Of a stretch of 41,667 nt of DNA, positions 16,983 to 32,461 are shown in pieces. Below the pieces are notes generated by a model. It searched no databases, had not been told where the DNA came from, and saw only the letters and a list, made by a program, of their open reading frames with translations. Origin of the DNA: a virus (lineage: Duplodnaviria > Heunggongvirae > Uroviricota > Caudoviricetes). Position numbers and translations under genes: made by a program. The stretch is from positions 1 to 41,667 of IMG/VR virus record IMGVR_UViG_2841729706_000003; one strand, given 5' to 3'. Positions within the stretch are counted from its first letter, which is position 1. Every line of letters begins with the position of its first letter.

Positions 16983-17876
16983 TTAGGCGAGCCAGGGCGT
17001 GACGAGCAGCTCGGCGGTTGCGCGGTAGGTGTTGGTCGCGCCGGCCGCATCGCGCTCGGCCTTGAGCACGTCGAAGGCAGCGCCTTCGTTCGACGGCGAA
17101 ACGACAAGGAGGTCCGGCCTGAGGCCGAGGGGCCGGCCATAATCGCCCTTCATTTCCATGATGGCCGTGCGGGCAGCGATATAGCGCTGCTTTGTCAACG
17201 GCTGGGTCGAACCGAACGCCATCTGCCAGAAGCCGTAACCGACATTGCGCCGGCAATCGACGCCGTAGACGAATTCCTTGTTCATGAAGACGTTGTCGTC
17301 GCGCGGATCGTCCTTAGCGACGAATGTCGGCTTCTCGCGCTCTTGGAAGATGATCGGCTTGAGCGCCCGGCGTGTCGACAGAAGGAACCAGGGCGCGGCC
17401 GAGCCCTCGTCGGTGTTCGTCACCGAATAGGGCGTGCCGTCTGCGTCAAGAACGGCATGATCGCCGTCAAAGTAGTTCTGGCCGTCATAGCATGGCCGCG
17501 ACCATCCCTCCTTGGCGGCTTCCCAGACCAGAAGATCGGGATGCGCCGCAGTGCTCTCGCCCATCTCCACGAACATGGGTTCGTAGACGCCGAGATTGTC
17601 GTCGCGGATGTCGTCGCGGTCGACGCCCACGGTCATCTCGAAAGGCTTGTTCTTGATCGCGTAGTCATGTTCCGCCAGCCCATGCACCGCGCGTGGGCCG
17701 ATCCACTCGCGCAGGTTCGGCAGCTTGCCGAGCCAGCCATATTTGTTTTCCTTCGTGCTCGACGGAACGGTGGTGGCGATGCGGCTGTAGTCGGTCTCGG
17801 CCTGGCCGAGGCCGCGCCGGAAGGCGGTGGAGAAGCCGACGCGGATAGCGTCGAGATTGGCGGAGTTGATGATCAT
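16983..17876 (-). CDS. Mu gpT-like major capsid protein
   Basis: VPSSTKENKYGWLGKLPNLREWIG, Y.IKNK.FE.TV.VDRDDI.DD.LG.Y.P, LKPIIFQER, G.PLG..P..LVV.P. Confidence 0.96.
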   Translation of the reverse strand: MIINSANLDAIRVGFSTAFRRGLGQAETDYSRIATTVPSSTKENKYGWLGKLPNLREWIGPRAVHGLAEHDYAIKNKPFEMTVGVDRDDIRDDNLGVYEPMFVEMGESTAAHPDLLVWEAAKEGWSRPCYDGQNYFDGDHAVLDADGTPYSVTNTDEGSAAPWFLLSTRRALKPIIFQEREKPTFVAKDDPRDDNVFMNKEFVYGVDCRRNVGYGFWQMAFGSTQPLTKQRYIAARTAIMEMKGDYGRPLGLRPDLLVVSPSNEGAAFDVLKAERDAAGATNTYRATAELLVTPWLA

Positions 17877-18418: not shown

Positions 18419-19015
18419 TCAGAGCGCGGCCGCGCGCTCCGCCTTGAGGGTTTCGGCGTAGTCCTTGGGATCGATGCCAAGCATCTTCGCGACTTCGAGC
18501 TGTTCGGCCTGGAGGGAGACCTCGCCCTCCCTGGCCGGCGGCGTCGCAGGGACGACCGAGCCACCGGCGCCGAGCACCGGCATGGCACTGATCAGCGCCT
18601 CGGTATTGGCGGGGTCGGCCATGTGCATCGTCACGTAGCGGTCGCGCACCGGCTTGAGGCCGACGCGGCCAAGCTTGATCGCATCGTCGACAAAGGTCGC
18701 GGCCGCCTTGCGCTTGGTTTCTTCGGTAAGCGTGTTGAGCGTCGTGGTGACCGTTGCAAGCTCGGCCTGGAGAGCGATCACCGCATCTTCGGAACCGGAC
18801 GACCGCTTCAGGGCTTCGACGCCGATCAGGACCGCGGACGCTTCGGCATCGACCGCAAGCCCCACCGCCTTTGCGATGGGTGAGAGTGCGGCCTGCAGCG
18901 CGGTCGACACCTCGGCCTGGGCCGCATGCATGGAGGTCACGCGCTCGACGAGTTGATCTGCGGTCGTGCCGGCCGGCAGGCCGAGCGCGTTCAAGAGCTG
19001 TTGAAGCAGGTCCAT
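18419..19015 (-). CDS. Nested in-frame scaffolding protein (Mu gpZ-like)
   Basis: Internal ATG with strong SD (CAGGAGAACACA-ATG) right after the protease domain; helical, Ala-rich product. Mu Z is made the same way. Confidence 0.7.
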   Translation of the reverse strand: MDLLQQLLNALGLPAGTTADQLVERVTSMHAAQAEVSTALQAALSPIAKAVGLAVDAEASAVLIGVEALKRSSGSEDAVIALQAELATVTTTLNTLTEETKRKAAATFVDDAIKLGRVGLKPVRDRYVTMHMADPANTEALISAMPVLGAGGSVVPATPPAREGEVSLQAEQLEVAKMLGIDPKDYAETLKAERAAAL

Positions 19016-19519
19016 TGTGTTCTCCTGGTGAAGCGCGGTCAGGCCGCGAAGATTGGGGCGGTTGACGAGCGAGGCGCGCAGGATGGCGGTGATCTCGCCC
19101 GACTTCTGATGCTGAATGACCGGAGACAGCCCGCGATAGGCGCGTCCGGCCACGAGACGTCGGCCGTGCGCGGTCCACTCGACGCGGCCCCATATGCCGT
19201 CCTGGCGATGCTGAAGCTCGACGATCCAACCACGCGCCGGCGCCGGTTCGCCGCGCGGGGCGGCAAGGTCGGTCGCGTGGTTCTCATCGATCGGCAGCCG
19301 GTCCCCGCCGTCGAGGCGGCTGTTGCGGATCAGCGATTGCGGATCGGCCACGCGGTAAGGCCCGCGGTTGTCCCCGGTGCGAATTTCACCTGCCGGTAGC
19401 AGATGAACCCATTCCGGCACGGCCGATCCTTCGGCCGGCAGGTCCAGTGCGGCGCAAAGCGCTACGGCGTCGACCGAAGCGGCGTTGAGGGAAACGAAGC
19501 GAGTGCGGTTGCCAAACAT
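18419..19519 (-). CDS. Mu gpI-like prohead protease (alternative GTG start at 19528)
   Basis: PEWVHLLPAG, LPIDENHAT, PARGWI..L..R.DGIWG.VEWT, YRGLSPV, ASLVNRPNL. Confidence 0.94.
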   Translation of the reverse strand: MFGNRTRFVSLNAASVDAVALCAALDLPAEGSAVPEWVHLLPAGEIRTGDNRGPYRVADPQSLIRNSRLDGGDRLPIDENHATDLAAPRGEPAPARGWIVELQHRQDGIWGRVEWTAHGRRLVAGRAYRGLSPVIQHQKSGEITAILRASLVNRPNLRGLTALHQENTMDLLQQLLNALGLPAGTTADQLVERVTSMHAAQAEVSTALQAALSPIAKAVGLAVDAEASAVLIGVEALKRSSGSEDAVIALQAELATVTTTLNTLTEETKRKAAATFVDDAIKLGRVGLKPVRDRYVTMHMADPANTEALISAMPVLGAGGSVVPATPPAREGEVSLQAEQLEVAKMLGIDPKDYAETLKAERAAAL

Positions 19520-19526
19520 GGCCCGC

Positions 19527-19572
19527 ACATTCGCCGGTCGGCTGTCGGCAAAACAGCCACAAGGTGTTGCGG
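19527..19572 (-). promoter_or_regulatory. Candidate Mor/C-activated late promoter for the head operon
   Basis: AAACAGCCACAAGGTGTTGCGG (19551-19572) matches 32440-32461 at 19/22 positions; GAATGT -10-like hexamer 18 nt downstream on the minus strand. Confidence 0.6.
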
Positions 19573-19741
19573 GGGGATGCCGGCAGTTAGTGAGAATGTG
19601 CGGTCCAATGGCGATTGGAGCCCGACCGGTGACGCAGCGGAGAGAAAGCTGTCACGATAGGCATTAACGGTCAATCGCAATCCCTTGCCTGCACAGACGA
19701 CTCAGGAGCACATTCAGTTTCAGGGATAGGGGGAGGCTCAA

Positions 19742-20773
19742 ATGAACGACGATCCAGATTCGAAACCGGCACCAATCATCGGCCAGGTTACCGATTTGCT
19801 TGGTGCCGGAGCGGTAGCAAGCCGTTTCCTGACCATGGTGGAACGGGGCATAGGGCCATTGCTCGGGCCTCTGGCCGATCGCTGGAAGAACAAGCACATC
19901 CGCGCCGATGCAGACCGATTTTTCTCCGATATGAATTCGAAAGGACTTGCTCCCACATCGGCAGAGCTCACGATCGACGGCCGGGCAAACCTTCGCGTCA
20001 GCTTCGAAACCGTCCGGCAACAGGAAAACCGGGAAGCGATCGCTGTTGAAGGGCTCATCGAGGCCGAACGCATAGCTGGCGAATTGCCTCCGCCAAGCGA
20101 TCCCCTGCCGGACATCGAAGCTGAATGGATCGATCACTTCTGGGATCTGGCCGGGCGTGTCAGTTCCGAAGGGCGGCAAGCGCTATGGGGTCGAATTCTG
20201 GCACGTTCGGCAGCGGGTCGCTTCACGAGCGCTCGCGCGTTGACACTACTTTCCACTTTGAGTGGCGAGGAGGCACGACAGCTTGAAAGATTGGCCCAAT
20301 TTACCTGCCGGTTCGAGATTGATGAAGTCGTCACAGGCTTTGGGCTGTTCCGGCGAATCCCTTCACCTCTCCAGGATTCGGACCGGGCAATTCTAGAAGA
20401 GGCCAACGCCCGTCTATTTGAGAAAATGCAGCCGTTGTCGCAACGTCTCTTTGGGTCGATCGGTATTTTCGTTGAGGACGGCTTTGCGTTCAGTTTCCAG
20501 CAGAGGCCTAGGGGCGACGTCATCAGATTGGCTCTTGCGGGACGTTCATTCCGGCTGCACGGTCGGAGCCGACTAATCAGTCCATTACCTGGCGATACAC
20601 ATGGGTTCGTCGGTTTCGGCAGCGGCGTTGAAATATCCCCGATAGGTGCGGAGATATTCGAACTCATTCGAATCGAACCGAACCACGAATGGTTGCGTAT
20701 TCTTGCTGGAGCGTTCGCGGTACTTGGCTGGCAGCTTTGTGAAGCGGACGGGTCTCCAGTGGCTCCAGGTTAG
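19742..20773 (+). CDS. DUF2806/Abi-alpha-like protein (moron)
   Basis: RQQENREAI...EWIDHFWDLA..VS.EG.Q.LWGRILA...S.RAL.LL..LS..EA pattern. SD GGGGGAGG. Opposite strand to the phage genes. Confidence 0.65.
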   Translation: MNDDPDSKPAPIIGQVTDLLGAGAVASRFLTMVERGIGPLLGPLADRWKNKHIRADADRFFSDMNSKGLAPTSAELTIDGRANLRVSFETVRQQENREAIAVEGLIEAERIAGELPPPSDPLPDIEAEWIDHFWDLAGRVSSEGRQALWGRILARSAAGRFTSARALTLLSTLSGEEARQLERLAQFTCRFEIDEVVTGFGLFRRIPSPLQDSDRAILEEANARLFEKMQPLSQRLFGSIGIFVEDGFAFSFQQRPRGDVIRLALAGRSFRLHGRSRLISPLPGDTHGFVGFGSGVEISPIGAEIFELIRIEPNHEWLRILAGAFAVLGWQLCEADGSPVAPG

Positions 20774-20822
20774 GCGCGCATAGGATAATCTTGGACGCTG
20801 AGCGACGATATGAGGGGCGATC

Positions 20823-22208
20823 ATGGAAAGCAGGCGGCAGTTTGCAACCTCGGTGAAGGCAGTGGAGGCCTTCACCGAAGAGTGGGTCGAGACGATCCTT
20901 AAATTCAGATCACTGGAGGAAGCGGGGAAAACCGTCAGCCAAGCTCAGATCGAATTTCTCGACAAAACGGAATTTCTAAATCATTTTGACGGCAACAATT
21001 TTGTTAGTGCAAATGGCTACGACTATTTGCGCTCTGCGGCAGAACTCGTTCTTCACGAGGACAAACTGCAATTTCGGGTAAGGCGTGAAACGGCTCAGGC
21101 TGAACTCGAAAGAGCTTTCGCGACTGACGTCAAAAAACTCAAGAAAAGACGCCGGTTTTCGCCAAACGCCATTGTGAAGGAGGCGAAAGCGAAACTTCAC
21201 GCACTGCCCTTTTCAGACGGCTTATACGTCTTTCCTGCCATATTTGCACCGAATGCGATTGAGCACTCCTTCCTATGCGGTCCAATAGAAATTGTCCCTA
21301 AGGCTCGATTCTTGGCAGAGAACAAAGCCGCGATCGAGAACATGAAGAAGGAGGAATCGAAAGGTAAGTGGCCGAGTTTGGCCGAGCGATGGGAACAATA
21401 TATCGGTCGATACGATCATTTTGTGACCGTTCACATGGATGGCTTCGAAAGCGAGAGGGCATGGGTGGTTGCACGCGAGAGCGCAGAATTCCTGCTGAAT
21501 CTCGTTCGCATGACATTCACCTTTCAAGTGACGGAAAGGATTAAGCTAGCGGGCGGATTTATTTGGGATGAATCAAGCACATTTCTCATGATTTCGCCGA
21601 GTGGTGGCATCGGTCTTTCCTCACAGGACGGCCCTTGGGGATCGCATCTCGATAATGATTGGACTTGTGAGGTGGATCGACAACTGGGTGCGTCTCGCGG
21701 TTACCTTTCAAGTCTGGCAGCTTTGCTTACCAGCGGGAAATATCCGACTTCGCCAATCCTTGAAAGATTGCGCTATGCCAATCAACTAATCTCCGAAGCC
21801 TATTGCGAACCTCATGATCACATCCGCCTTGTGCGCATAGTATCCGCATTGGAAGCGCTTGCTTTGGTCGATGGGAACGAGAAGGCGCGCCCTGTGGCGG
21901 TGCGTTGCGCTTGCGCCGGCGGTTGGTCGGACACCGCACACGCCATGCGAATCTTTGAAGCCGTAAGCCAAGCCTATCACTGGCGGAACGCAATTGTTCA
22001 CGGTGATCCATCTCCACCCGAAGCAATCAAAGAGGCTTTTCTGCGCCTGGAGCAGTTTTTGGTTCACATCTACGAGGGGTTTGTAGTTCTTTTTGGCGGT
22101 ATCTGGAATGCCAAGAAACCCGAAACAATTCGCGACCTCCGTCGAGAAGTACGAGAAAGGATAGATCTTTTTTTCTGGTCCCCCGAGTTGGCAACCTCGG
22201 ACGGGTAA
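20823..22208 (+). CDS. HEPN-domain protein (ApeA-like architecture), putative RNase
   Basis: C-terminal RLRYA...IVSALEAL...YHWRNAIVHG with R-x4-H at 21984-22001. SD GAGGGG. Low GC (21/60 at 20941-21000). Confidence 0.8.
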   Translation: MESRRQFATSVKAVEAFTEEWVETILKFRSLEEAGKTVSQAQIEFLDKTEFLNHFDGNNFVSANGYDYLRSAAELVLHEDKLQFRVRRETAQAELERAFATDVKKLKKRRRFSPNAIVKEAKAKLHALPFSDGLYVFPAIFAPNAIEHSFLCGPIEIVPKARFLAENKAAIENMKKEESKGKWPSLAERWEQYIGRYDHFVTVHMDGFESERAWVVARESAEFLLNLVRMTFTFQVTERIKLAGGFIWDESSTFLMISPSGGIGLSSQDGPWGSHLDNDWTCEVDRQLGASRGYLSSLAALLTSGKYPTSPILERLRYANQLISEAYCEPHDHIRLVRIVSALEALALVDGNEKARPVAVRCACAGGWSDTAHAMRIFEAVSQAYHWRNAIVHGDPSPPEAIKEAFLRLEQFLVHIYEGFVVLFGGIWNAKKPETIRDLRREVRERIDLFFWSPELATSDG

Positions 22209-22244
22209 ATCCTATTTTTGACCGGACGCCACTAGGTGGGATTG

Positions 22245-24431
22245 ATGGAAGAAATTTACAAATTCAGTGATGACATGCCCGGTCGGAATGCCTTCCGGGA
22301 CGACAAATTGGGATTTCGCCCGTTCGCGTCACGGCTGGCTAAAGTTCTCTTGTCGATGGATGCGCCGAACGGTTATGTCATTGGCCTGCACGGAGTTTGG
22401 GGCAGCGGCAAGTCCACCGCGCTGAATTTCGTTCGTCAGCATGTCGAAAAGCACAACCAGGAGATCGAGCGGCCCGAAGAGCAGGTGGTGCTGATCGAGT
22501 TTCAGCCCTGGCTGATATCAGGTCATCAGGATTTAATCGGTGCGTTCTTCAAGGTCCTGTCAGAACGCCTGCCTGTGCTATCGGAGCAACCTAGCAACCT
22601 ACTTGGCAAGCTTCAGAGTGTCGGGAAAAAGGCCGGTGATCCTATTATCGACGCGGCGGCGGCCATCGGAGCACTTTTTGATCCAACTGCCGGGATTGGT
22701 TCGAAAGCTGTTGCAACTGTCGCGAAGAGCACTTTGAAGGACCGGCTGGATAGATGGCAGGCGATTCCTTCTCTGCAGTCAAGCTATCAAACGCTGGTGG
22801 TCAAGCTTGCCCAGCAGAAGCGCAGAATAGTCGTCTTTATTGACGACGTCGACCGGCTAAGCCAGGACGAAATCCGCAACATGATGCAGCTTGTGAAGTC
22901 CGTCGGCCGCTTGCCGTATGTTACCTACGTTCTTGCCTATGATCGACGCATCGTTTGGGCCGCGCTGGATCGCGAAGATTCCACTCATGAAGGGCCGCGG
23001 TTTGCAGAAAAAATCATTCAGCATGAATTGGAACTTCCGCGCCCGACGCAAAATGCGCTTCTCAGAGTGTTCGATAGTGCGGCCAGGGACTTCCTGGACG
23101 GCATCGAGTCAAACGAACGTCTGCATCGCATAGTTCTTCATGGGCTCTACAATTGGATCGCAACGCCTCGCGACGCGATACGGCTCGCGAACGCGATTAA
23201 GTTCTCCTGGGGTGCCATTCGCGGCGAGATTGATCCCCACGACCTCCTCGCGATGGAGGGGCTGCGTGTGTTCGACTACGACACTTTTCAGTGGTTGAGA
23301 AAGAACCGCGGTTTTCTGATAGGCGATGACCTTACGATGCTCAATGATGACGAGCGCAAGAAAATAGCCTCGAAGTTGCGAACGCAACTCACTGAGAATG
23401 ACAAGAATTACGTAATTGAACTTCTGGCGAACTTGTTTCCCGGACGCGAAAAAGAGCTCCGTGGTGGCCTTCAACATCATGGGGAGCCATATTATTCCAT
23501 AGTGAAACGTGGCGGCGTGGGAGCGGCACAAGGCTACGACGCCTACTTCAGTCTATTTCCACCGGAGGGGGAAATCTCGAAATCAGCCGCTGATAGCCTG
23601 GCCTCCCGTCTCGACGATCGTGAATACATCGAGCAAATGATTGTCGAGACGTTTGGCAATGCCGACCGCAAAGGCGAGCCGCTTGTCGGAAGTTTTCTGG
23701 CACAGCTACACTATAGGATGCTTGGCAATTCCAATATCAAGCCGACAACGCAGTTGCTTGCGGCTCTGATGGCAACTGGTGATAAGATTGTTTCAATCGA
23801 GTGGACGGGCCGCTGGTTTGCCGCTCCGGCATATATCGGGTTGTCCGGCTTATTGAGGGAGATGGTCAAGCGTTGGGGGCAGGAAATGGCGCTTCAAGAG
23901 TTTTGCACTGTGGCCAAGGACGGCTCACCCCTGATGTCCTCTTTCTTGCTCGCACAGGTATCGCCGAGCTTGGCTTCTCAGGGCGCCGATCGCGATGGAC
24001 TTCTGACGGAGGACCAAGCCAATGAGCTGGCGGCAGTAGTTCAGGAACGCATCAGAGATGCAATTGGCAAGAAAGCCTTGCACACTTTGCCCGATCTTTG
24101 GCCGGTTTTTCAAGTGTGGAGGCAAGTGGCTCAATCGGATGAAATTAAGAATTGGGTTTCAGAAACCCTCAGCAACCATCCCAGCTTACTGGCCAAATTG
24201 CCCATCTTCAGAACAAGAAGTGCGAGCGGTGATGGGGTTGACTACTCGCTAGGTTCGAAACCCGATCCGAGCTTATTTCAGATGGAGGACCTCGTGAGCG
24301 CTGCCAACGAGCTCGTCGCCAATGAGGAAACGGACAAAGTCACTCGCGCTAAAGCCGAAGCCATCCTAAGGGGCGTCAGAGATGGCATTCCTGACTATGC
24401 TACGGATGGAGTCGCAGATGACGACCAATAA
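22245..24431 (+). CDS. KAP-family P-loop NTPase with a long C-terminal region (alternative GTG start at 22236)
   Basis: DDKLGFRPFA, YVIGLHGVWGSGKST (Walker A), IEFQPW, VFIDDVDRL (Walker B), YVLAYDR, FAEKII, TPRDAIRLAN. Confidence 0.92.
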   Translation: MEEIYKFSDDMPGRNAFRDDKLGFRPFASRLAKVLLSMDAPNGYVIGLHGVWGSGKSTALNFVRQHVEKHNQEIERPEEQVVLIEFQPWLISGHQDLIGAFFKVLSERLPVLSEQPSNLLGKLQSVGKKAGDPIIDAAAAIGALFDPTAGIGSKAVATVAKSTLKDRLDRWQAIPSLQSSYQTLVVKLAQQKRRIVVFIDDVDRLSQDEIRNMMQLVKSVGRLPYVTYVLAYDRRIVWAALDREDSTHEGPRFAEKIIQHELELPRPTQNALLRVFDSAARDFLDGIESNERLHRIVLHGLYNWIATPRDAIRLANAIKFSWGAIRGEIDPHDLLAMEGLRVFDYDTFQWLRKNRGFLIGDDLTMLNDDERKKIASKLRTQLTENDKNYVIELLANLFPGREKELRGGLQHHGEPYYSIVKRGGVGAAQGYDAYFSLFPPEGEISKSAADSLASRLDDREYIEQMIVETFGNADRKGEPLVGSFLAQLHYRMLGNSNIKPTTQLLAALMATGDKIVSIEWTGRWFAAPAYIGLSGLLREMVKRWGQEMALQEFCTVAKDGSPLMSSFLLAQVSPSLASQGADRDGLLTEDQANELAAVVQERIRDAIGKKALHTLPDLWPVFQVWRQVAQSDEIKNWVSETLSNHPSLLAKLPIFRTRSASGDGVDYSLGSKPDPSLFQMEDLVSAANELVANEETDKVTRAKAEAILRGVRDGIPDYATDGVADDDQ

Positions 24432-24577
24432 GTACTGATAGTCTTTCTATTAAACGGGTTTTGAACGGGTCAGGGCAGCCGGCAAGGCATTTCGTCGACA
24501 CATGGCGCGGACAAGCAGCGCTGAGGTGCCCCAGGGCCACTTTTGGCAAAACTGCAATCTCAGCGTAGGATGGCGCC

Positions 24578-24760
24578 ATGGGATGGCGGGCTGACCTCGC
24601 ATATGACAAGGCCGAACGGGAAGAATGGCGCCGCTTCATGCGGGCGCAGCCTGTCTGGCGGCGGCTAAATATCTACGTCTGGCAGTTTCTGTTCCTGGTC
24701 GCCGTTGCTGTGATCCTTGCCGGCCCGTTCGTCTTCTCCATCATCGGCTCCCCCTCCTGA
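24578..24760 (+). CDS. Small single-TM membrane protein (60 aa)
   Basis: Charged N-terminus, then IYVWQFLFLVAVAVILAGPFVFSII. AGGA upstream. Confidence 0.55.
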   Translation: MGWRADLAYDKAEREEWRRFMRAQPVWRRLNIYVWQFLFLVAVAVILAGPFVFSIIGSPS

Positions 24761-24929
24761 TCGACCGCAAGCGATCGGGGCTCGATCAGTATGAGGCCAA
24801 GGTCCAACTATCGCCGCCGTGGCGAAATGTTATCGATCGACGGATTGGATGGGGCGGTCGCGCCTATCCCCAGTTGGCGCTGCCAGTTGCTAGACCGGCA
24901 ACTTTCTAGCCTTGAAATGGGAGACCATC

Positions 24930-25955
24930 ATGAGAAGCTTGTTTCGCTCTTGCGTCTTTGCAATTGTGCTTGCAGTCATGCCATGTGCCGAGGCGTTGGC
25001 TGACGACCCCATTCCCGTAACGCCAGACAACTTCGTCAGGGCCGAGTCGGACTTGTACTTCGGCAATATCGTCAAGGATGGCGGCCTCGGGAAATTTGTC
25101 CACCGCCGCGAGCCTGCGGAAATCGACAATCAAACGGTCATCCGGCTCAACCGCGACACATTATATTCCGCCGCCGTGTTCGATCTCGATGCTGGTTCGG
25201 TGACCGTAAAGATACCTGAAGTCGGCAAACGCTTCGTCTCAATGCAGGTCATCAACGAAGATCAGTATACGCCGGCCGTCTATTACGGCAAAGGAAACCA
25301 CACCTTTACCAGGAAAGAGATCGGTACGCGTTACGTTATCGTCGCCATCCGGACCCTGGTTGATCCGGCCGATGCCAAGGACCTGGAAAAGGTTCACGCC
25401 CTGCAAGATGCGATCAAGGTAGACCAGAAGAGCGCCGGCAAATTCGAAATCCCGAATTGGGATGCCGCCAGCCAGGCGAAGGTGCGTGAAGCACTCCTCG
25501 TCCTCGCCTCAACGCTGCCAGACGCGAACCGGATGTTCGGCACCAAAGCCCAGGTCGACCCTGTCCGGCGGTTGATCGGCGCGGCTTCGGCCTGGGGCGG
25601 AAATCCCGACAAGGAAGCGATCTATCTCAATGTCACGCCTTCCAAAAACGACGGCAAGACAATCTACAAGGTCACGGCGGCGAAGGTTCCTGTCGATGGC
25701 TTCTGGTCGGTCAGCCTCTACAATGCCAAGGGCTTCTACGAGAAAAACCCCTACGACGCCTATAGTTTCAACAGCATTACGGCTCAGAAGGCTGCCGATG
25801 GGTCTGTGACGATCCAGTTCGGAGGGTGCGACGGAAAAATCCCGAATTGCCTGCCTGTCATGGCGGACTGGAACTACATGGTCCGTCTCTACAGGCCTCA
25901 TCCCGAGGTCCTGAACGGCAAATGGAAGTTTCCAGAGGCGCAGGCAGTTAACTGA
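24930..25955 (+). CDS. Exported DUF1254/DUF1214 protein (alternative start 24912)
   Basis: Signal peptide MRSLFRSCVFAIVLAVMPCAEALA; VTPDNFVRAESD.YF, IRLNRDTLYS, PVDGFWSVSLYN, WNYMVRLYRP. Confidence 0.88.
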   Translation: MRSLFRSCVFAIVLAVMPCAEALADDPIPVTPDNFVRAESDLYFGNIVKDGGLGKFVHRREPAEIDNQTVIRLNRDTLYSAAVFDLDAGSVTVKIPEVGKRFVSMQVINEDQYTPAVYYGKGNHTFTRKEIGTRYVIVAIRTLVDPADAKDLEKVHALQDAIKVDQKSAGKFEIPNWDAASQAKVREALLVLASTLPDANRMFGTKAQVDPVRRLIGAASAWGGNPDKEAIYLNVTPSKNDGKTIYKVTAAKVPVDGFWSVSLYNAKGFYEKNPYDAYSFNSITAQKAADGSVTIQFGGCDGKIPNCLPVMADWNYMVRLYRPHPEVLNGKWKFPEAQAVN

Positions 25956-25965
25956 GAGGACCTCC

Positions 25966-26655
25966 TTAGCCGGCCAGCGCCAGCCCGACTATGCCTGGAT
26001 TAAATGCGAAGCCCGGGTCGATGCCTGCCGGCGTCTCGATCGGCCGGCCGCGGACGAATTTGATCAGCGTCCGCTCCGGGGGAGCCTCGTCCGAAACTTC
26101 CCAGCCGTAGCGCGCTAGATCTCGCTCCGAAAGCGACTGCACGTAGCAACGGCAGTTCCAGCCATTGGGCGGGTAATGCGTGATCCACCATGGATGATCG
26201 ACCGGCAGGATGACGCCGTGCCATTCGGCATGTTCATGCCGCGAATAGCGTTGCGTCAGCTCGGGATCGACATGGACGTAGCGCAGATAAGGCCGCACAC
26301 GCTTCAGCCGCTGGATTTGCTGCCAGCGGCCCGCCGCATAGGCCTGCGCCGTCATGATCCTGAAGGTAAGCCCAGCACGGTAGCCGTCCGATCCGTCTTC
26401 CCAGCCGTGGCGGCGTATGGCGGTGTCCCAGCCATCCAGGAAGCCGCCGAGGCCGGTACCGTCCTCGATCGCGCGCAGCACTTCGGCCAGGATATCGGTC
26501 AGCAGCGCGTCGGTCATGCCGGCGGAACGGTCGGTTGCTGCCTCATCAATCTGGCGGACGAGTTCGGCCCAGCGGTCGGCCGGCAGCTCCAGGCGACGGC
26601 GCAGGAAGGTGATAGCCTCCTCGAAGCGGACGTTCGAGACTTCAGGCGTCGCCAC
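25966..26655 (-). CDS. Mu gpF-like minor head protein
   Basis: RFEEAITFL, AQAYAAGRW.Q, PYLRYVH, RHEHAEWHG.ILPVDHPWW..HYPPNGWNCRCYV, IDPGFAFNPG. GTG at 26655 preferred over 26676. Confidence 0.92.
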   Translation of the reverse strand: MATPEVSNVRFEEAITFLRRRLELPADRWAELVRQIDEAATDRSAGMTDALLTDILAEVLRAIEDGTGLGGFLDGWDTAIRRHGWEDGSDGYRAGLTFRIMTAQAYAAGRWQQIQRLKRVRPYLRYVHVDPELTQRYSRHEHAEWHGVILPVDHPWWITHYPPNGWNCRCYVQSLSERDLARYGWEVSDEAPPERTLIKFVRGRPIETPAGIDPGFAFNPGIVGLALAG

Positions 26656-28210
26656 GATCCGCCTCCGCGGCCTCACCGGACAACCAGGCGAGCAGTAAGG
26701 CCTGTCGCATCGCGGCGGTCAGGTCAGCCGGGGCGGCGAAGGCGGTACCGGCATGCTCAAGCGCTGCATGTGCCTCCTCGAGACTGCCGGCGCCGGCAAC
26801 AAGGCCGCGGACCTTGGAGACCAGGCCATCGACCGCAGGGCCGGCAAGCTTCAGCGCGGCTTCGGCAAGCAGTTCTTCTGCCGTTCTGGACGCCGGCGCC
26901 TGTTCCTGATGAAGCGACTGCGTGCCGGCCGGCTGGCGATCCGGTTTCGACGGCGCGGGATTTGGCGCGCCAAGAACCTCGGCCCCGTCCTCCGGATCGG
27001 ACAGGCCGAACTTGTCGCGGATTTCTGACGCCTGGACGCGAAGGCCGAGCGGGACGAGCTGCGAAAGCGAGGTAGAAAGCTGCGCCAAATCCTCCTCGTC
27101 CGGCCGGGCGATGCGCAGGCGCGGATAGCGCTCCTGCGGCCCATATTCCAGGTCGATCCAGATGCGTATCAGGTCGCGATTGAGGATCGCCGAGAGTGCG
27201 CGGGCGTCGGCCCGCTCGATATCGGCCTGGACCTGTCTATGCTCCTGGCTGACGGCATGACCGCCCGATATCGCATCCGTTGTCGTCGTCTGGCCGAGGA
27301 CAGCTTTAGAGACCTGACGGTCGAGCCAGTCGACGCGCTTTTCGTACAGGTCCGACGAAGCGCCGACCGACTTCGATTCGATGAACTCGATGTTCATTCC
27401 TTCCGGCATGATCGCGGCGCAATCACCGGCAATGTTCGCCACCGCGCGATAGAGCGTGTCGCGATCGGCTTCGGTCGCGCCCGGTCCATATTTGCCGACC
27501 CGGATCGGCTGGCCGTAAGTCTGCGTGAAGATCGCCCAATCGCGATTTGAAAAGGCCTTGAACATCCATGCCCATGTCGCGGCGCGGGCAATGCCCGAGC
27601 GGATCGGCAGGCCGGATTTCGCCTTCAGCACGGCGCTGACGAACTTGCCGCCGGGCAGTTCCAGCTCCTCGCCATGTTCGCCAAGCATCAGGGGTGTCGT
27701 CAGGTCGCGCCGTGCCGGCCGGAACCAGCGCGGATCACGCCATTCGAGTCGGCCCGGCTGCCACTGGCCTTCAGACGTATCCCAGATGATCTCGGTGAAG
27801 GAATAGCCCTTTCCGACCGCGTCGAGGATGTCGAACAGCTCGTCGGCCAGTTCGTCACGTAGCAGCCACTCGCGCACCATATCGGCCTTGTCGACATCGG
27901 CCGAGTCGTCGCTGGCGGCTTCGACGCTCACCTCGATCTGGGCGACAGAGCGTTTGCGCGTACCGATGACGCCCAGATAATGGAGGTCGCGCTCCTCGAT
28001 CGTTTCCGCCAGTTCCAGGTAGCGCAGCGGATCGCCGGCGTCGGCCTCGCGCAGGATGGTCGCGAGCCGCGCGGGATTGAGCCCGTCGCCGGGATAGCCG
28101 CTGATCGGCGAACGCACGCCTGTAACGGTCGCCGCAGCAATCTCCTGCGTCAGCACCTTACGCTCGATCGGCCGGCCCCACTGGTCGAGGATTTTGGAAG
28201 TGATCGCCAT
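26642..28210 (-). CDS. Mu gp29-like portal protein (DUF935)
   Basis: GLNPARLA.IL..AD.G, E.D.HY..V..TRK..V, FTQTYGQP.RVGKY, SKAVLGQT.TTD...G.HA...EH. Confidence 0.95.
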   Translation of the reverse strand: MAITSKILDQWGRPIERKVLTQEIAAATVTGVRSPISGYPGDGLNPARLATILREADAGDPLRYLELAETIEERDLHYLGVIGTRKRSVAQIEVSVEAASDDSADVDKADMVREWLLRDELADELFDILDAVGKGYSFTEIIWDTSEGQWQPGRLEWRDPRWFRPARRDLTTPLMLGEHGEELELPGGKFVSAVLKAKSGLPIRSGIARAATWAWMFKAFSNRDWAIFTQTYGQPIRVGKYGPGATEADRDTLYRAVANIAGDCAAIMPEGMNIEFIESKSVGASSDLYEKRVDWLDRQVSKAVLGQTTTTDAISGGHAVSQEHRQVQADIERADARALSAILNRDLIRIWIDLEYGPQERYPRLRIARPDEEDLAQLSTSLSQLVPLGLRVQASEIRDKFGLSDPEDGAEVLGAPNPAPSKPDRQPAGTQSLHQEQAPASRTAEELLAEAALKLAGPAVDGLVSKVRGLVAGAGSLEEAHAALEHAGTAFAAPADLTAAMRQALLLAWLSGEAAEADRGDA

Positions 28211-29583
28211 TACCAGGTACCTCCTCGAATGCCGGCGCCGAGCGGCGAGCGATAGGGATCGAGCTCGCCCATGTCGAAACGGTCGTCAGGCGCGTGGTCG
28301 AAGCCGCGCCTCGATGCCCCTTGAACACCCGTCGAAACGGCCTGATAGCGGTATTCGTAATGAGCGCCGCCGGCCGCATTGACGGCCAGGAAGCACGCCC
28401 AGGTGCGATCGGCGTGATCGTCGGTGCGCTCGGCAACAAACCGCGGCGCGCCTGTTGGCCCGGAGACCTTGCGGAGTTTGTGCAGATCGGCGCGCAAGGC
28501 CGGACGACCTTCCGGAATACGGATTGTCCTATCCTCGAAGCGTTCCTTGCCGGCCGTCGCCATGACGAGCTTGTTTGGTCCGGTGAAAAGCACGCCCTCG
28601 ACACGGTGTTCGCCGTAACGACGTTGCGCATCCTCGATCGGCTTTTCGCCCATGCCGGTCTGGTCGCCGCAAAGGCGGGCAACGCGGTAGCGGCGCATGA
28701 CCTGGTCAAGCGCCTCGTCCTGTTCGGCAAAGGTGGCGCGCTTCATCTCGACGATTTCGCGCGTCCAGAGCACATCGCCGACCTGCTCCAGCACCCATAT
28801 GACGAAGAGATCGTTGCGACGGCCGATATCCATGCCGACGAAGCAGACGCCGCCCTGATAGCCGTCAGGATCGCCGGCAGCCTCGTCCTCGACCGAAGAG
28901 ATCAAGTCGTATGGCAGCCAGGCGCTCGCCTCGTCGAGATAGCGAAGCTCGTATTCCTGCGCCCATGCGTCGTCGTCGGCAATGCCGGCGCGCAGTTCCT
29001 CGATGTCGCGCGGCAAGCCGTCCGCCACCGCCTGATAGATATCAACCGTGTGGCGCGACCACGTTTGATCCTCGGCCGTGTCGAGTTCGTAGAATTTGCC
29101 GCTCTTGCCGTTCGGGGTCGAGGTGATGCGCAGTTTCCAGCCGGCCGAGATGACCGGAAACAGTGCCTTCCAGATCGCACCGGAATCCTTGTGGAAGGCG
29201 AATTCGTCGAGGAAGACATTGGAGGAGAAACCGCGAGCGGTATCGGGATTGGCAGGCAGCGCGGTTATCTTCGAGCCGTGCGGCAGCTCGACCTCCATCG
29301 CCCGGTAGGAGCCGGAAGCGCCCTTCCAATCGAACTCCTGCGCTTCGAGCGCGAGGCCGTAGGCCTGCGCATGGCGCTTAACGCCTTCGTCCATAGCCTC
29401 CTTGGCCTGGCGCTCGCCGCGCGAGAGTATGACCCAGCGGCTACGATGCTGCTTGATTGCCACCTCCAGGGTTGTGGTGAACGTCTTTCCGGTCTGGCGG
29501 GCGAATTTGCCGATCTTGAAGCGCGAGCGGTCGAGAAACCAGCGGCGCTGGAAGCCATAAAGGGGAACGGCCGAGGCGCTCAT
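28210..29583 (-). CDS. Terminase large subunit (Mu gp28-like)
   Basis: ARQTGKT (Walker A), NVFLDEFAFH (Walker B), ITSTPNGK, GMDIGR (nuclease), HADRTWA. Confidence 0.95.
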   Translation of the reverse strand: MSASAVPLYGFQRRWFLDRSRFKIGKFARQTGKTFTTTLEVAIKQHRSRWVILSRGERQAKEAMDEGVKRHAQAYGLALEAQEFDWKGASGSYRAMEVELPHGSKITALPANPDTARGFSSNVFLDEFAFHKDSGAIWKALFPVISAGWKLRITSTPNGKSGKFYELDTAEDQTWSRHTVDIYQAVADGLPRDIEELRAGIADDDAWAQEYELRYLDEASAWLPYDLISSVEDEAAGDPDGYQGGVCFVGMDIGRRNDLFVIWVLEQVGDVLWTREIVEMKRATFAEQDEALDQVMRRYRVARLCGDQTGMGEKPIEDAQRRYGEHRVEGVLFTGPNKLVMATAGKERFEDRTIRIPEGRPALRADLHKLRKVSGPTGAPRFVAERTDDHADRTWACFLAVNAAGGAHYEYRYQAVSTGVQGASRRGFDHAPDDRFDMGELDPYRSPLGAGIRGGTW

Positions 29584-32415: not shown

Positions 32416-32461
32416 AGAATGGGCGCATGGGCGGTTGCGAAACAGCCACAAGTCCTTGCGG
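32416..32461 (-). promoter_or_regulatory. Candidate Mor/C-activated late promoter for the lysis/packaging operon
   Basis: AAACAGCCACAAGTCCTTGCGG at 32440-32461; CATTCT -10-like hexamer 18 nt downstream, the same spacing as at the head promoter. Confidence 0.6.

What the first reader, a model, noticed from the sequence alone, without database searches (positions are those of the whole stretch)
20823..24431. HEPN-KAP pair as a possible sensor/effector two-gene module
Seen: an intact RNAIVH motif and intact Walker A/B motifs. The HEPN gene has its own SD and a GATAAT -10-like hexamer just upstream (~20784), so the pair may be expressed without the DUF2806-like gene. The KAP protein has a C-terminal region of about 330 aa that I cannot assign. 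Inference: the NTPase restrains or triggers the RNase on sensing a phage protein, with the C-terminal region as the sensor.
Basis: partly seen in the sequence, partly recalled or inferred. Interest (0 to 1): 0.7.

Follow-up and report, generated by a model that had tools for sequence, protein, structure and literature searches.

The report
Prophage defence stack: HEPN plus PifA
The two genes are real, but they look like two self-sufficient anti-phage genes (a stand-alone HEPN RNase-type protein and a full-length relative of the F-plasmid T7-exclusion protein PifA) parked side by side in the cargo slot of a Mu-like prophage, not like an obligate sensor/effector pair.

Summary
Both genes and their motifs are there. 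The 461-aa protein (20823-22208) ends in a HEPN domain. Evidence: a confident model whose residues 307-434 match solved HEPN proteins, and a family-invariant R388-x4-H393. The 728-aa protein (22245-24431) is an end-to-end homologue of F-plasmid PifA, so its "unassignable" C-terminal region is the ordinary PifA C-terminal region.

The sensor/effector reading is poorly supported.
- HEPN relatives: none of 10 usable genome loci has a KAP or DUF2806 gene within 8 kb. No neighbour is conserved across them (one unknown ORF is shared by two loci), and several neighbours are defence genes.
- KAP relatives: none of 97 loci has the HEPN or DUF2806 gene nearby.
- Both families keep one fixed length, and no fusions were seen.

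One exception exists. The closest relative of each protein lies on the same two public contigs, so the two genes travel together in one nearby lineage.

The genes and an upstream DUF2806 gene form a low-GC cassette on the opposite strand, inside the head-gene module of a Mu-like prophage. This slot holds different cargo in related phages.

Best reading: stacked single-gene defences carried by a prophage. A cooperating pair in a small clade remains possible. The scan has no look-alike on other DNA.

The parts
19742..20773 (+). DUF2806-domain protein (343 aa), first gene of the low-GC cassette
   Evidence: Pfam PF10987 at E 2.2e-16. GC3 is 0.57 against 0.77-0.83 in the flanking phage genes. Only 7 close relatives were found, none on a contig length shared with the HEPN or KAP hits. 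A DUF2806 protein ('Belisama') is reported as a single-gene anti-phage cassette in bioRxiv 10.1101/2024.07.02.601686.
20823..22208 (+). Stand-alone two-domain HEPN protein (461 aa): N-terminal alpha/beta domain of about 300 aa plus a C-terminal HEPN domain with R388-N-A-I-V-H393
   Evidence: AF2 model with pLDDT 87.8 and pTM 0.84. For residues 307-434 the VIA-align list is dominated by HEPN proteins: YutE Z 9.9, MNT-HEPN toxin Z 8.7, AF_0298 Z 8.3, and also AbiA, Csm6, AbiV, Csx1 and sacsin HEPN. R388 and H393 are invariant. No Pfam match passes the cut-off (HEPN_RiboL-PSP, E 0.013) and there is no PADLOC match.
20784..20789 (+).
   Evidence: The hexamer is present. The promoter scan does not call it. 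The same hexamer occurs 7 times in the window on both strands.
22245..24431 (+). PifA-like KAP P-loop NTPase (728 aa from ATG 22245; an alternative GTG is at 22236)
   Evidence: Pfam KAP_NTPase at E 3.1e-43. PADLOC PifA at E 3.6e-91, covering residues 21-700 against profile positions 15-706 of 720. hhalign of A2 against the F-type plasmid 'phage T7 exclusion protein' gives probability 99.8%, E 2.4e-28, residues 22-709 against 22-736 of 741. AF2 model has pLDDT 79.7, and its best PDB matches are the RADAR ATPase RdrA and ORC/Cdc6-type ATPases.
24930..25955 (+). Secreted DUF1254/DUF1214 protein, last plus-strand gene in the slot; probably separate cargo
   Evidence: Pfam PF06863 and PF06742. It has a hydrophobic N-terminal signal-like segment. 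GC3 is 0.71, between the cassette and the phage genes.
25966..26676 (-). Mu F-like head morphogenesis gene, one border of the cargo slot
   Evidence: Pfam Phage_Mu_F at E 1.9e-13. Portal_Mu and the large terminase lie next to it at 26642-29583.
18419..19528 (-). Mu I-like protease/scaffold gene, the other border of the cargo slot
   Evidence: Pfam Mu-like_Pro at E 3.2e-51. The major head gene gpT is at 16983-17876. In three related viral contigs the F-I interval is 1.7-2.8 kb and holds unrelated cargo.

Best explanation
A Mu-like prophage carries a horizontally acquired, lower-GC cassette in the variable slot between its F and I head genes, on the opposite strand. The cassette stacks three genes that each resemble a self-contained abortive-infection or exclusion protein.

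1. A DUF2806 protein.
2. A stand-alone HEPN protein. By inference, its N-terminal domain senses an infection cue and releases the C-terminal Rx4H RNase, probably against tRNA or other host RNA. ApeA works this way.
3. A full-length PifA homologue. By inference, it acts like F-plasmid PifA: an NTPase that responds to phage proteins and aborts infection.

The HEPN and KAP genes are probably co-transcribed and protect the lysogen from other phages in parallel. They are not an obligate sensor/effector pair.

Shown here: gene structures, domain identities, prophage context, variable slot, and lack of pair conservation. Inferred: RNase activity, triggers, and independence of action.
For: - Full-length PifA homology covers the previously unassigned C-terminal region.
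- HEPN fold plus an invariant Rx4H motif.
- HEPN family, 10 usable genome loci out of 13 found across 185,579 species representatives. None has a PifA-like KAP or DUF2806 gene within 8 kb. No neighbour is conserved across them, apart from one unknown ORF shared by two loci (L005/L006).
- Neighbours of HEPN relatives include a type I methyltransferase, a WYL regulator, a PDC-S49 candidate, a helicase and a resolvase.
- KAP family, 9 genome loci, 80 metagenome loci and 8 viral loci. None has the HEPN family nearby (tblastn on all 97; the family HMM on the 89 genome and metagenome loci). None has DUF2806, and there is no conserved neighbour of any kind.
- An exhaustive profile search found 932 HEPN-family representatives. 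The top 150 are at most 510 aa long (full-length members about 410-510 aa, the rest shorter fragments), so no NTPase fusions were seen.
- The cassette has GC3 0.53-0.60 against 0.77-0.83 for phage genes, and lies between Mu F and Mu I.
- The same slot holds a PD-Lambda-5_A-like gene plus a methyltransferase in one related phage, and unrelated ORFs in two others.
- Literature: KAP NTPases fused to unknown C-terminal regions defend as single proteins (bioRxiv 10.1101/2025.10.07.681051). ApeA is a single-protein HEPN anticodon nuclease (bioRxiv 10.64898/2026.01.26.701840). A DUF2806 protein is a single-cassette defence.
Against: - The closest homologue of each protein (HEPN P0010 at 48% identity, KAP P0042 at 53%) and their cluster mates occur on the same two Logan contigs (47,318 and 31,440 bases). 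Linkage has therefore survived roughly 50% protein divergence in one lineage.
- A second possible case is P0008/P0137, both listed with a 3,941-base contig.
- The genes are 36 nt apart on one strand with no terminator between them.
- There are precedents for a KAP-type or related ATPase working with a separate effector. QatA gives weak hits, and RdrA is the best structural match.
Confidence: 0.6

Rival explanations
1. In a small clade (this prophage and the lineage behind the two Logan contigs), the HEPN protein and the PifA-like NTPase form a true two-gene system. The NTPase senses a phage protein and gates or activates the HEPN RNase.
For: - The closest homologues of both proteins co-occur on two contigs.
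- The genes are tightly spaced and co-directional, with similar GC3.
- The KAP model resembles RdrA, an ATPase that docks a separate effector (PMC9994260).
Against: - Both proteins have the standard length and architecture of families that are solitary everywhere else sampled.
- No extra docking domain and no fusions were seen.
- The starts and stops do not overlap.
Confidence: 0.22
2. All three genes (DUF2806, HEPN, KAP) form one three-component system expressed as an operon.
For: - They share a strand, have short gaps (49 and 36 nt) and no terminator-like sites between them.
- All three have low GC3.
Against:
- DUF2806 is absent from all 10 HEPN loci and all 97 KAP loci.
Confidence: 0.08
3. 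The cassette is not defensive. It could be a toxin-type addiction module that stabilises the prophage, or decaying cargo with no current function.
For: HEPN proteins are often toxins of toxin-antitoxin pairs. No function has been tested.
Against: - Both ORFs are intact, with all catalytic motifs conserved.
- Relatives of the HEPN gene lie beside restriction-modification and other defence genes.
- PifA homology is strong.
Confidence: 0.1

Closest known systems
PifA of the F plasmid (phage T7 exclusion protein; PADLOC/DefenseFinder 'PifA')
   Same: It is a KAP P-loop NTPase followed by a long helical C-terminal region of about 730-740 aa. The alignment runs end to end (hhalign probability 99.8%). 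The PADLOC PifA model matches over its full length at E 3.6e-91. Both are carried on a mobile element.
   Different: - tblastn identity to F PifA is only about 22%, and only over the N-terminal half.
- There is no pifC repressor gene upstream (one search shows pifC-pifA in F).
- The element is a prophage in a high-GC genome, not an enterobacterial plasmid.
- Triggers and mechanism are untested.
ApeA (single-protein HEPN anti-phage tRNA anticodon nuclease)
   Same: The build is the same: an N-terminal domain of about 300 aa followed by a C-terminal HEPN domain with Rx4-6H, in a stand-alone gene found in defence contexts. A homologue (P0006) is named 'Apea-like HEPN domain-containing protein' by UniRef. 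The nearest structure cluster in the ESM Atlas carries that name, at TM 0.72.
   Different: - Neither 39 family members scanned against Pfam (HEPN_Apea, ApeA_NTD1) nor the 11 scanned against PADLOC give a match.
- hhalign against six PF18739-positive proteins gives probability 0.1%.
- The N-terminal domain here is mixed alpha/beta, whereas ApeA-NTD1 is described as mostly beta (PMC3710099).
RADAR (RdrA ATPase + RdrB deaminase) and Qat (QatA KAP NTPase + partners)
   Same: In these systems an ATPase of this general kind works with a separately encoded effector. RdrA is the best PDB match to the KAP model (Foldseek E 6e-6). QatA models give weak hits to the P-loop region.
   Different: - No RdrB or QatB-D homologues are present.
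- The QatA hits cover only the first ~130 residues (32-165) at best and fall far below the NCBIfam cut-off (34.6 against 600 bits).
- The pairing with HEPN is not conserved.
Accessory (moron) slot between the G and protease/I head genes of Mu-like phages, where Pseudomonas Mu-like phages carry anti-CRISPR genes (my own knowledge of Bondy-Denomy et al. 2013, not checked here)
   Same: The position is the same, in the head module between F/G and I. The cargo is variable and partly on the opposite strand.
   Different: The cargo here is host-protective defence genes rather than counter-defence genes, and the insert is unusually large at 6.4 kb.
Belisama (DUF2806 single-cassette defence from Vibrio chromosomal integrons)
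   Same: The upstream gene carries DUF2806. The paper reports a DUF2806 protein as an anti-phage cassette with Abi-alpha-like homology.
   Different: No sequence comparison with Belisama itself was possible, because no sequence was at hand.

Membership tests
PifA (PADLOC PifA; F-plasmid T7 exclusion protein family) | KAP-family P-loop NTPase domain with intact Walker A and B motifs | tested here: met
   Pfam PF07693 at E 3.1e-43. GSGKST and DDVDR are invariant in 37 relatives.
PifA (PADLOC PifA; F-plasmid T7 exclusion protein family) | Full-length homology to F PifA, including the C-terminal half | tested here: met
   PADLOC PifA model at E 3.6e-91, profile positions 15-706 of 720. hhalign against the plasmid-annotated 'phage T7 exclusion protein' gives probability 99.8%, residues 22-709 against 22-736 of 741.
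PifA (PADLOC PifA; F-plasmid T7 exclusion protein family) | Excludes phage on sensing phage proteins (T7 gp1.2 / gp10 in F) | not testable with these tools
   This needs an infection assay.
HEPN superfamily | Conserved Rx4-6H motif, usually with a polar residue after R | tested here: met
   The motif is R388-N-A-I-V-H393. R and H are invariant in 29 sequences.
HEPN superfamily | Four-helix up-down bundle fold | tested here: met
   Model residues 307-434 match YutE (Z 9.9), HEPN toxins 7ae2/8xdj/5yep (Z 7.6-8.7), AF_0298 (Z 8.3), and also Csm6, AbiV, AbiA and sacsin HEPN. Caveat: Z below 13 is not decisive for helical bundles. The case rests on HEPN entries dominating the list together with the motif.
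HEPN superfamily | Significant sequence match to a curated HEPN model | tested here: not met
   The best match is HEPN_RiboL-PSP at E 0.013, 15.9 bits against a 28.4-bit cut-off. No PDB sequence hit with the family profile.
ApeA | Match to HEPN_Apea (PF18739), ApeA_NTD1 (PF18862) or the PADLOC ApeA model | tested here: not met
   None of the 39 members scanned against Pfam matches, and none of the 11 scanned against PADLOC. hhalign of A1 against A3 gives probability 0.1%, though A3 is a small and poor alignment.
   0 of 10 HEPN loci and 0 of 97 KAP loci show the pair. Only one near lineage shares contigs.

The most novel reading that the evidence does not exclude
The HEPN protein belongs to a large family that has no curated description. 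An exhaustive search found 932 representative clusters, with no Pfam or PADLOC model. This could be a new single-gene anti-phage system with a novel alpha/beta sensor domain. In this prophage lineage it may have been recruited as the RNase arm of a PifA-type NTPase. That would give PifA, whose killing mechanism is still unknown, a defined effector partner.
Probability: 0.2. Interest if true: 0.7.

Novelty: new member of a known kind. Interest (0 to 1): 0.4.

Why it matters
It shows a Mu-like prophage using its head-module cargo slot to carry a stack of anti-phage genes. That fits the growing picture of prophages as vehicles of host immunity. It also flags a sizeable stand-alone HEPN family with an uncharacterised N-terminal domain that current defence catalogues do not cover. 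If the minority reading is right, a PifA-type NTPase working with a HEPN RNase would bear on how PifA-like proteins stop infection, which has been an open question since F exclusion of T7 was described.

Tried and rejected
The two Logan contigs that carry both closest homologues could not be fetched, so adjacency there is unknown.
- Foldseek of the whole HEPN model against PDB gave nothing below E 0.3. Only the VIA-align wide search exposed the C-terminal HEPN domain.
- The family profile against PDB sequences gave no hit.
- HEPN family in IMG/VR viral contigs: no relatives.
- HEPN family in genome samples: only a weak partial match in one other genome among 400 of the class, and none among 200 of the order.
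- ApeA membership by profile-profile comparison: not supported.
- PHROGs: no annotation for the DUF2806 or HEPN proteins, and only an unknown-function family for the KAP protein.
- Transmembrane insertion in the KAP domain (a frequent KAP feature): no 19-residue stretch reaches a Kyte-Doolittle mean of 1.6. The Walker A-B insert (115-178) is simply low-confidence in the model.
- A VIA-align search for the KAP model could not be run because the machine was busy. The C-terminal helical region therefore has no independent fold assignment.
- An own promoter for the HEPN gene was rejected as unsupported.
Full report
**Observation.**
The window holds three co-directional plus-strand ORFs:
- 19742-20773, a DUF2806 protein of 343 aa;
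- 20823-22208, a protein of 461 aa;
- 22236/22245-24431, a protein of 731/728 aa.

RNAIVH sits at residues 388-393 of the 461-aa protein. GVWGSGKST and VVFIDDVDR are in the third protein.

The GATAAT hexamer at 20784-20789 and a GAGGGG Shine-Dalgarno before the ATG at 20823 are also there. However, the consensus promoter scan does not call a promoter at that position, and it finds no terminator-like site between the three genes. GATAAT occurs seven times in the window on both strands. An own promoter for the pair is therefore not supported beyond chance.

The KAP gene most likely starts at ATG 22245. That codon has an AGGTGG Shine-Dalgarno, and the protein on record is 728 aa.

**The KAP protein is a full-length PifA homologue.**
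- Pfam gives KAP_NTPase at E 3.1e-43.
- The PADLOC PifA model matches residues 21-700 against profile positions 15-706 of 720, at E 3.6e-91.
- By tblastn the protein finds the 'phage T7 exclusion protein' of F-type plasmids only over its N-terminal half, at about 22% identity.
- A profile of 37 relatives (A2) aligns with that plasmid protein end to end. hhalign gives probability 99.8%, E 2.4e-28, window residues 22-709 against 22-736 of 741.

The AF2 model (pLDDT 79.7) shows an all-helical C-terminal half and a disordered insert between Walker A and B. Its best PDB matches are the RADAR ATPase RdrA and ORC/Cdc6-type ATPases. No hydrophobic stretch suggests a membrane helix.

**The 461-aa protein carries a C-terminal HEPN domain.**
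- Sequence models barely see it. The best Pfam match is HEPN_RiboL-PSP at E 0.013, and neither PADLOC nor PDB sequences give a hit.
- A model built on 29 family members is confident, with pLDDT 87.8 and pTM 0.84.
- An all-against-representatives structural search puts HEPN proteins at the top for residues 307-434. These are YutE (Z 9.9), the MNT-HEPN toxin (Z 8.7), AF_0298 (Z 8.3), and also AbiA, Csm6, Csx1, AbiV and sacsin HEPN.
- Z values of this size are not decisive for helical bundles. The case rests on three things together: HEPN entries dominate the list, R388 and H393 are invariant, and an asparagine follows the arginine, which is typical of HEPN.

The N-terminal ~300 residues form a mixed alpha/beta domain with no assignment.

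An exhaustive profile search finds 932 representative clusters at E <= 1e-3. Among the top 150, none exceeds 510 aa and the full-length members run from about 410 aa, the rest being shorter fragments. Ten distant members have no Pfam or PADLOC family.

ApeA-like naming appears for one homologue and for the nearest ESM Atlas structure cluster. Membership in ApeA is nevertheless not supported by Pfam, PADLOC or hhalign.

**Is the pair conserved?**
A scan of one genome for each of 185,579 species found 13 HEPN-family loci, 10 of them with a whole gene and flanks.
- None has a relative of the KAP or DUF2806 protein within 8 kb, by tblastn or by a KAP-family HMM.
- No neighbour is conserved across them. 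The one exception is an unknown ORF shared by two loci, L005 and L006.
- Their neighbours include a type I methyltransferase with a WYL regulator, a divergent PDC-S49 KAP-type candidate, a large helicase and a resolvase. This is a defence-island setting.

In the other direction, I examined 97 loci encoding PifA-like KAP relatives: 9 genome, 80 metagenome and 8 viral.
- None has the HEPN family nearby. tblastn covered all 97, and the family HMM covered the 89 genome and metagenome loci. None has DUF2806 nearby.
- Clustering of the neighbours in the 89 genome and metagenome loci found no conserved partner at all.

The HEPN family was found only as a weak partial match in one of 400 other genomes of the class, and in none of 200 other genomes of the order.

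There is one exception. The closest homologue of each protein lies on a 47,318-base Logan contig: HEPN P0010 at 48% identity and KAP P0042 at 53%. Their cluster mates P0161 and P0162 both lie on a 31,440-base contig. The two genes therefore travel together in one nearby lineage.

P0008 and P0137 both list a 3,941-base contig, which may be a second case or a coincidence.

**Context.**
The cassette has GC3 of 0.53-0.60, against 0.77-0.83 for the genes around it.

Those surrounding genes lie on the minus strand and form the head module of a Mu-like prophage:

| Gene | Coordinates |
|---|---|
| Large terminase | 28210-29583 |
| Mu portal | 26642-28210 |
| Mu F | 25966-26676 |
| Cassette (plus strand) | between F and I |
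| Mu I protease | 18419-19528 |
| Major head protein gpT | 16983-17876 |

In three related Mu-like viral contigs, the portal, F, I and T proteins are 58-84% identical to the window's. Their F-I interval is only 1.7-2.8 kb and carries unrelated cargo.
- One holds an opposite-strand PD-Lambda-5_A-like gene plus a D12 methyltransferase.
- Another holds an opposite-strand 519-aa ORF.

This is therefore a hypervariable cargo slot that tends to hold defence-type genes.

**Literature.**
- KAP NTPases fused to unknown C-terminal regions defend as single proteins. Both the Walker B motif and the C-terminal region are required (bioRxiv 10.1101/2025.10.07.681051).
- ApeA is a single-protein HEPN anticodon nuclease, activated through a ligand pocket outside the catalytic centre (bioRxiv 10.64898/2026.01.26.701840).
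- A DUF2806 protein ('Belisama') is reported as a single-cassette defence (bioRxiv 10.1101/2024.07.02.601686).
- The HEPN survey lists no KAP association (PMC3710099).

**Verdict.**
The most economical reading (confidence about 0.6) is a stack of self-sufficient defence genes carried as prophage cargo. They are probably co-transcribed and act in parallel.

A genuinely coupled HEPN-PifA pair restricted to a small clade remains possible (about 0.2). This is because of the shared contigs, the tight spacing, and precedents such as RADAR.

Its mechanism does not gain support, and its own refutation criterion of non-conservation is largely met. Other notes in this scan cover the same stretch of this genome, but nothing similar was found on other DNA.

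Noticed in passing
window 18419-29583 (and L135, L136, L137): The head module of a Mu-like prophage is split by a 6.4-kb opposite-strand insert between Mu F and Mu I. In three related viral contigs the same interval is 1.7-2.8 kb and none of its ORFs match each other or the window convincingly (one weak hit, E 0.001). L135 holds a PD-Lambda-5_A-like gene and a D12 methyltransferase. L137 holds a 519-aa opposite-strand ORF with a weak PIN hit. No Mu G-like gene was recognised in the window's interval.
   Followed up: partly
window 19551-19572 and 32440-32461: A shared motif (AAACAGCCACAAG ... TTGCGG) lies just outside the cassette, next to the start of Mu I, and again about 13 kb away. If so, it could restart late transcription after the insert. 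I only confirmed that the two copies align.
   Followed up: partly
window 24930-25955: A secreted DUF1254/DUF1214 protein is a fourth plus-strand gene in the slot. Its GC3 (0.71) is between that of the cassette and the phage, so it was probably acquired separately.
   Followed up: no
window 24543-24760: A promoter-like site (TTGGCA-17-TAGGAT) precedes a 60-aa ORF with one hydrophobic helix, in the 480-nt gap after the KAP gene. A weak minus-strand similarity (E 0.001) to an ORF downstream of Mu F in L135 overlaps it, so the coding strand is uncertain.
   Followed up: no
L005:9299-10513 and L006:9284-10498: In two HEPN-family loci (a Proteobacteria MAG and a Hyphomicrobium MAG), a conserved 404-aa ORF with no Pfam or PADLOC family overlaps the HEPN gene's stop by 4 nt. 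It may be a partner gene in that subclade.
   Followed up: partly
L003:5636-7363 (minus strand): In Phyllobacterium trifolii, a different KAP-type NTPase (PADLOC PDC-S49 at E 6.9e-22) lies divergently upstream of the HEPN homologue. It is unrelated to the PifA-like family by HMM.
   Followed up: partly
protein family of window 20823-22208: The HEPN protein belongs to a family of at least 932 representative clusters, with full-length members of about 410-510 aa. It has no Pfam or PADLOC model and often sits beside defence genes. It is a candidate uncatalogued single-gene defence family.
   Followed up: partly
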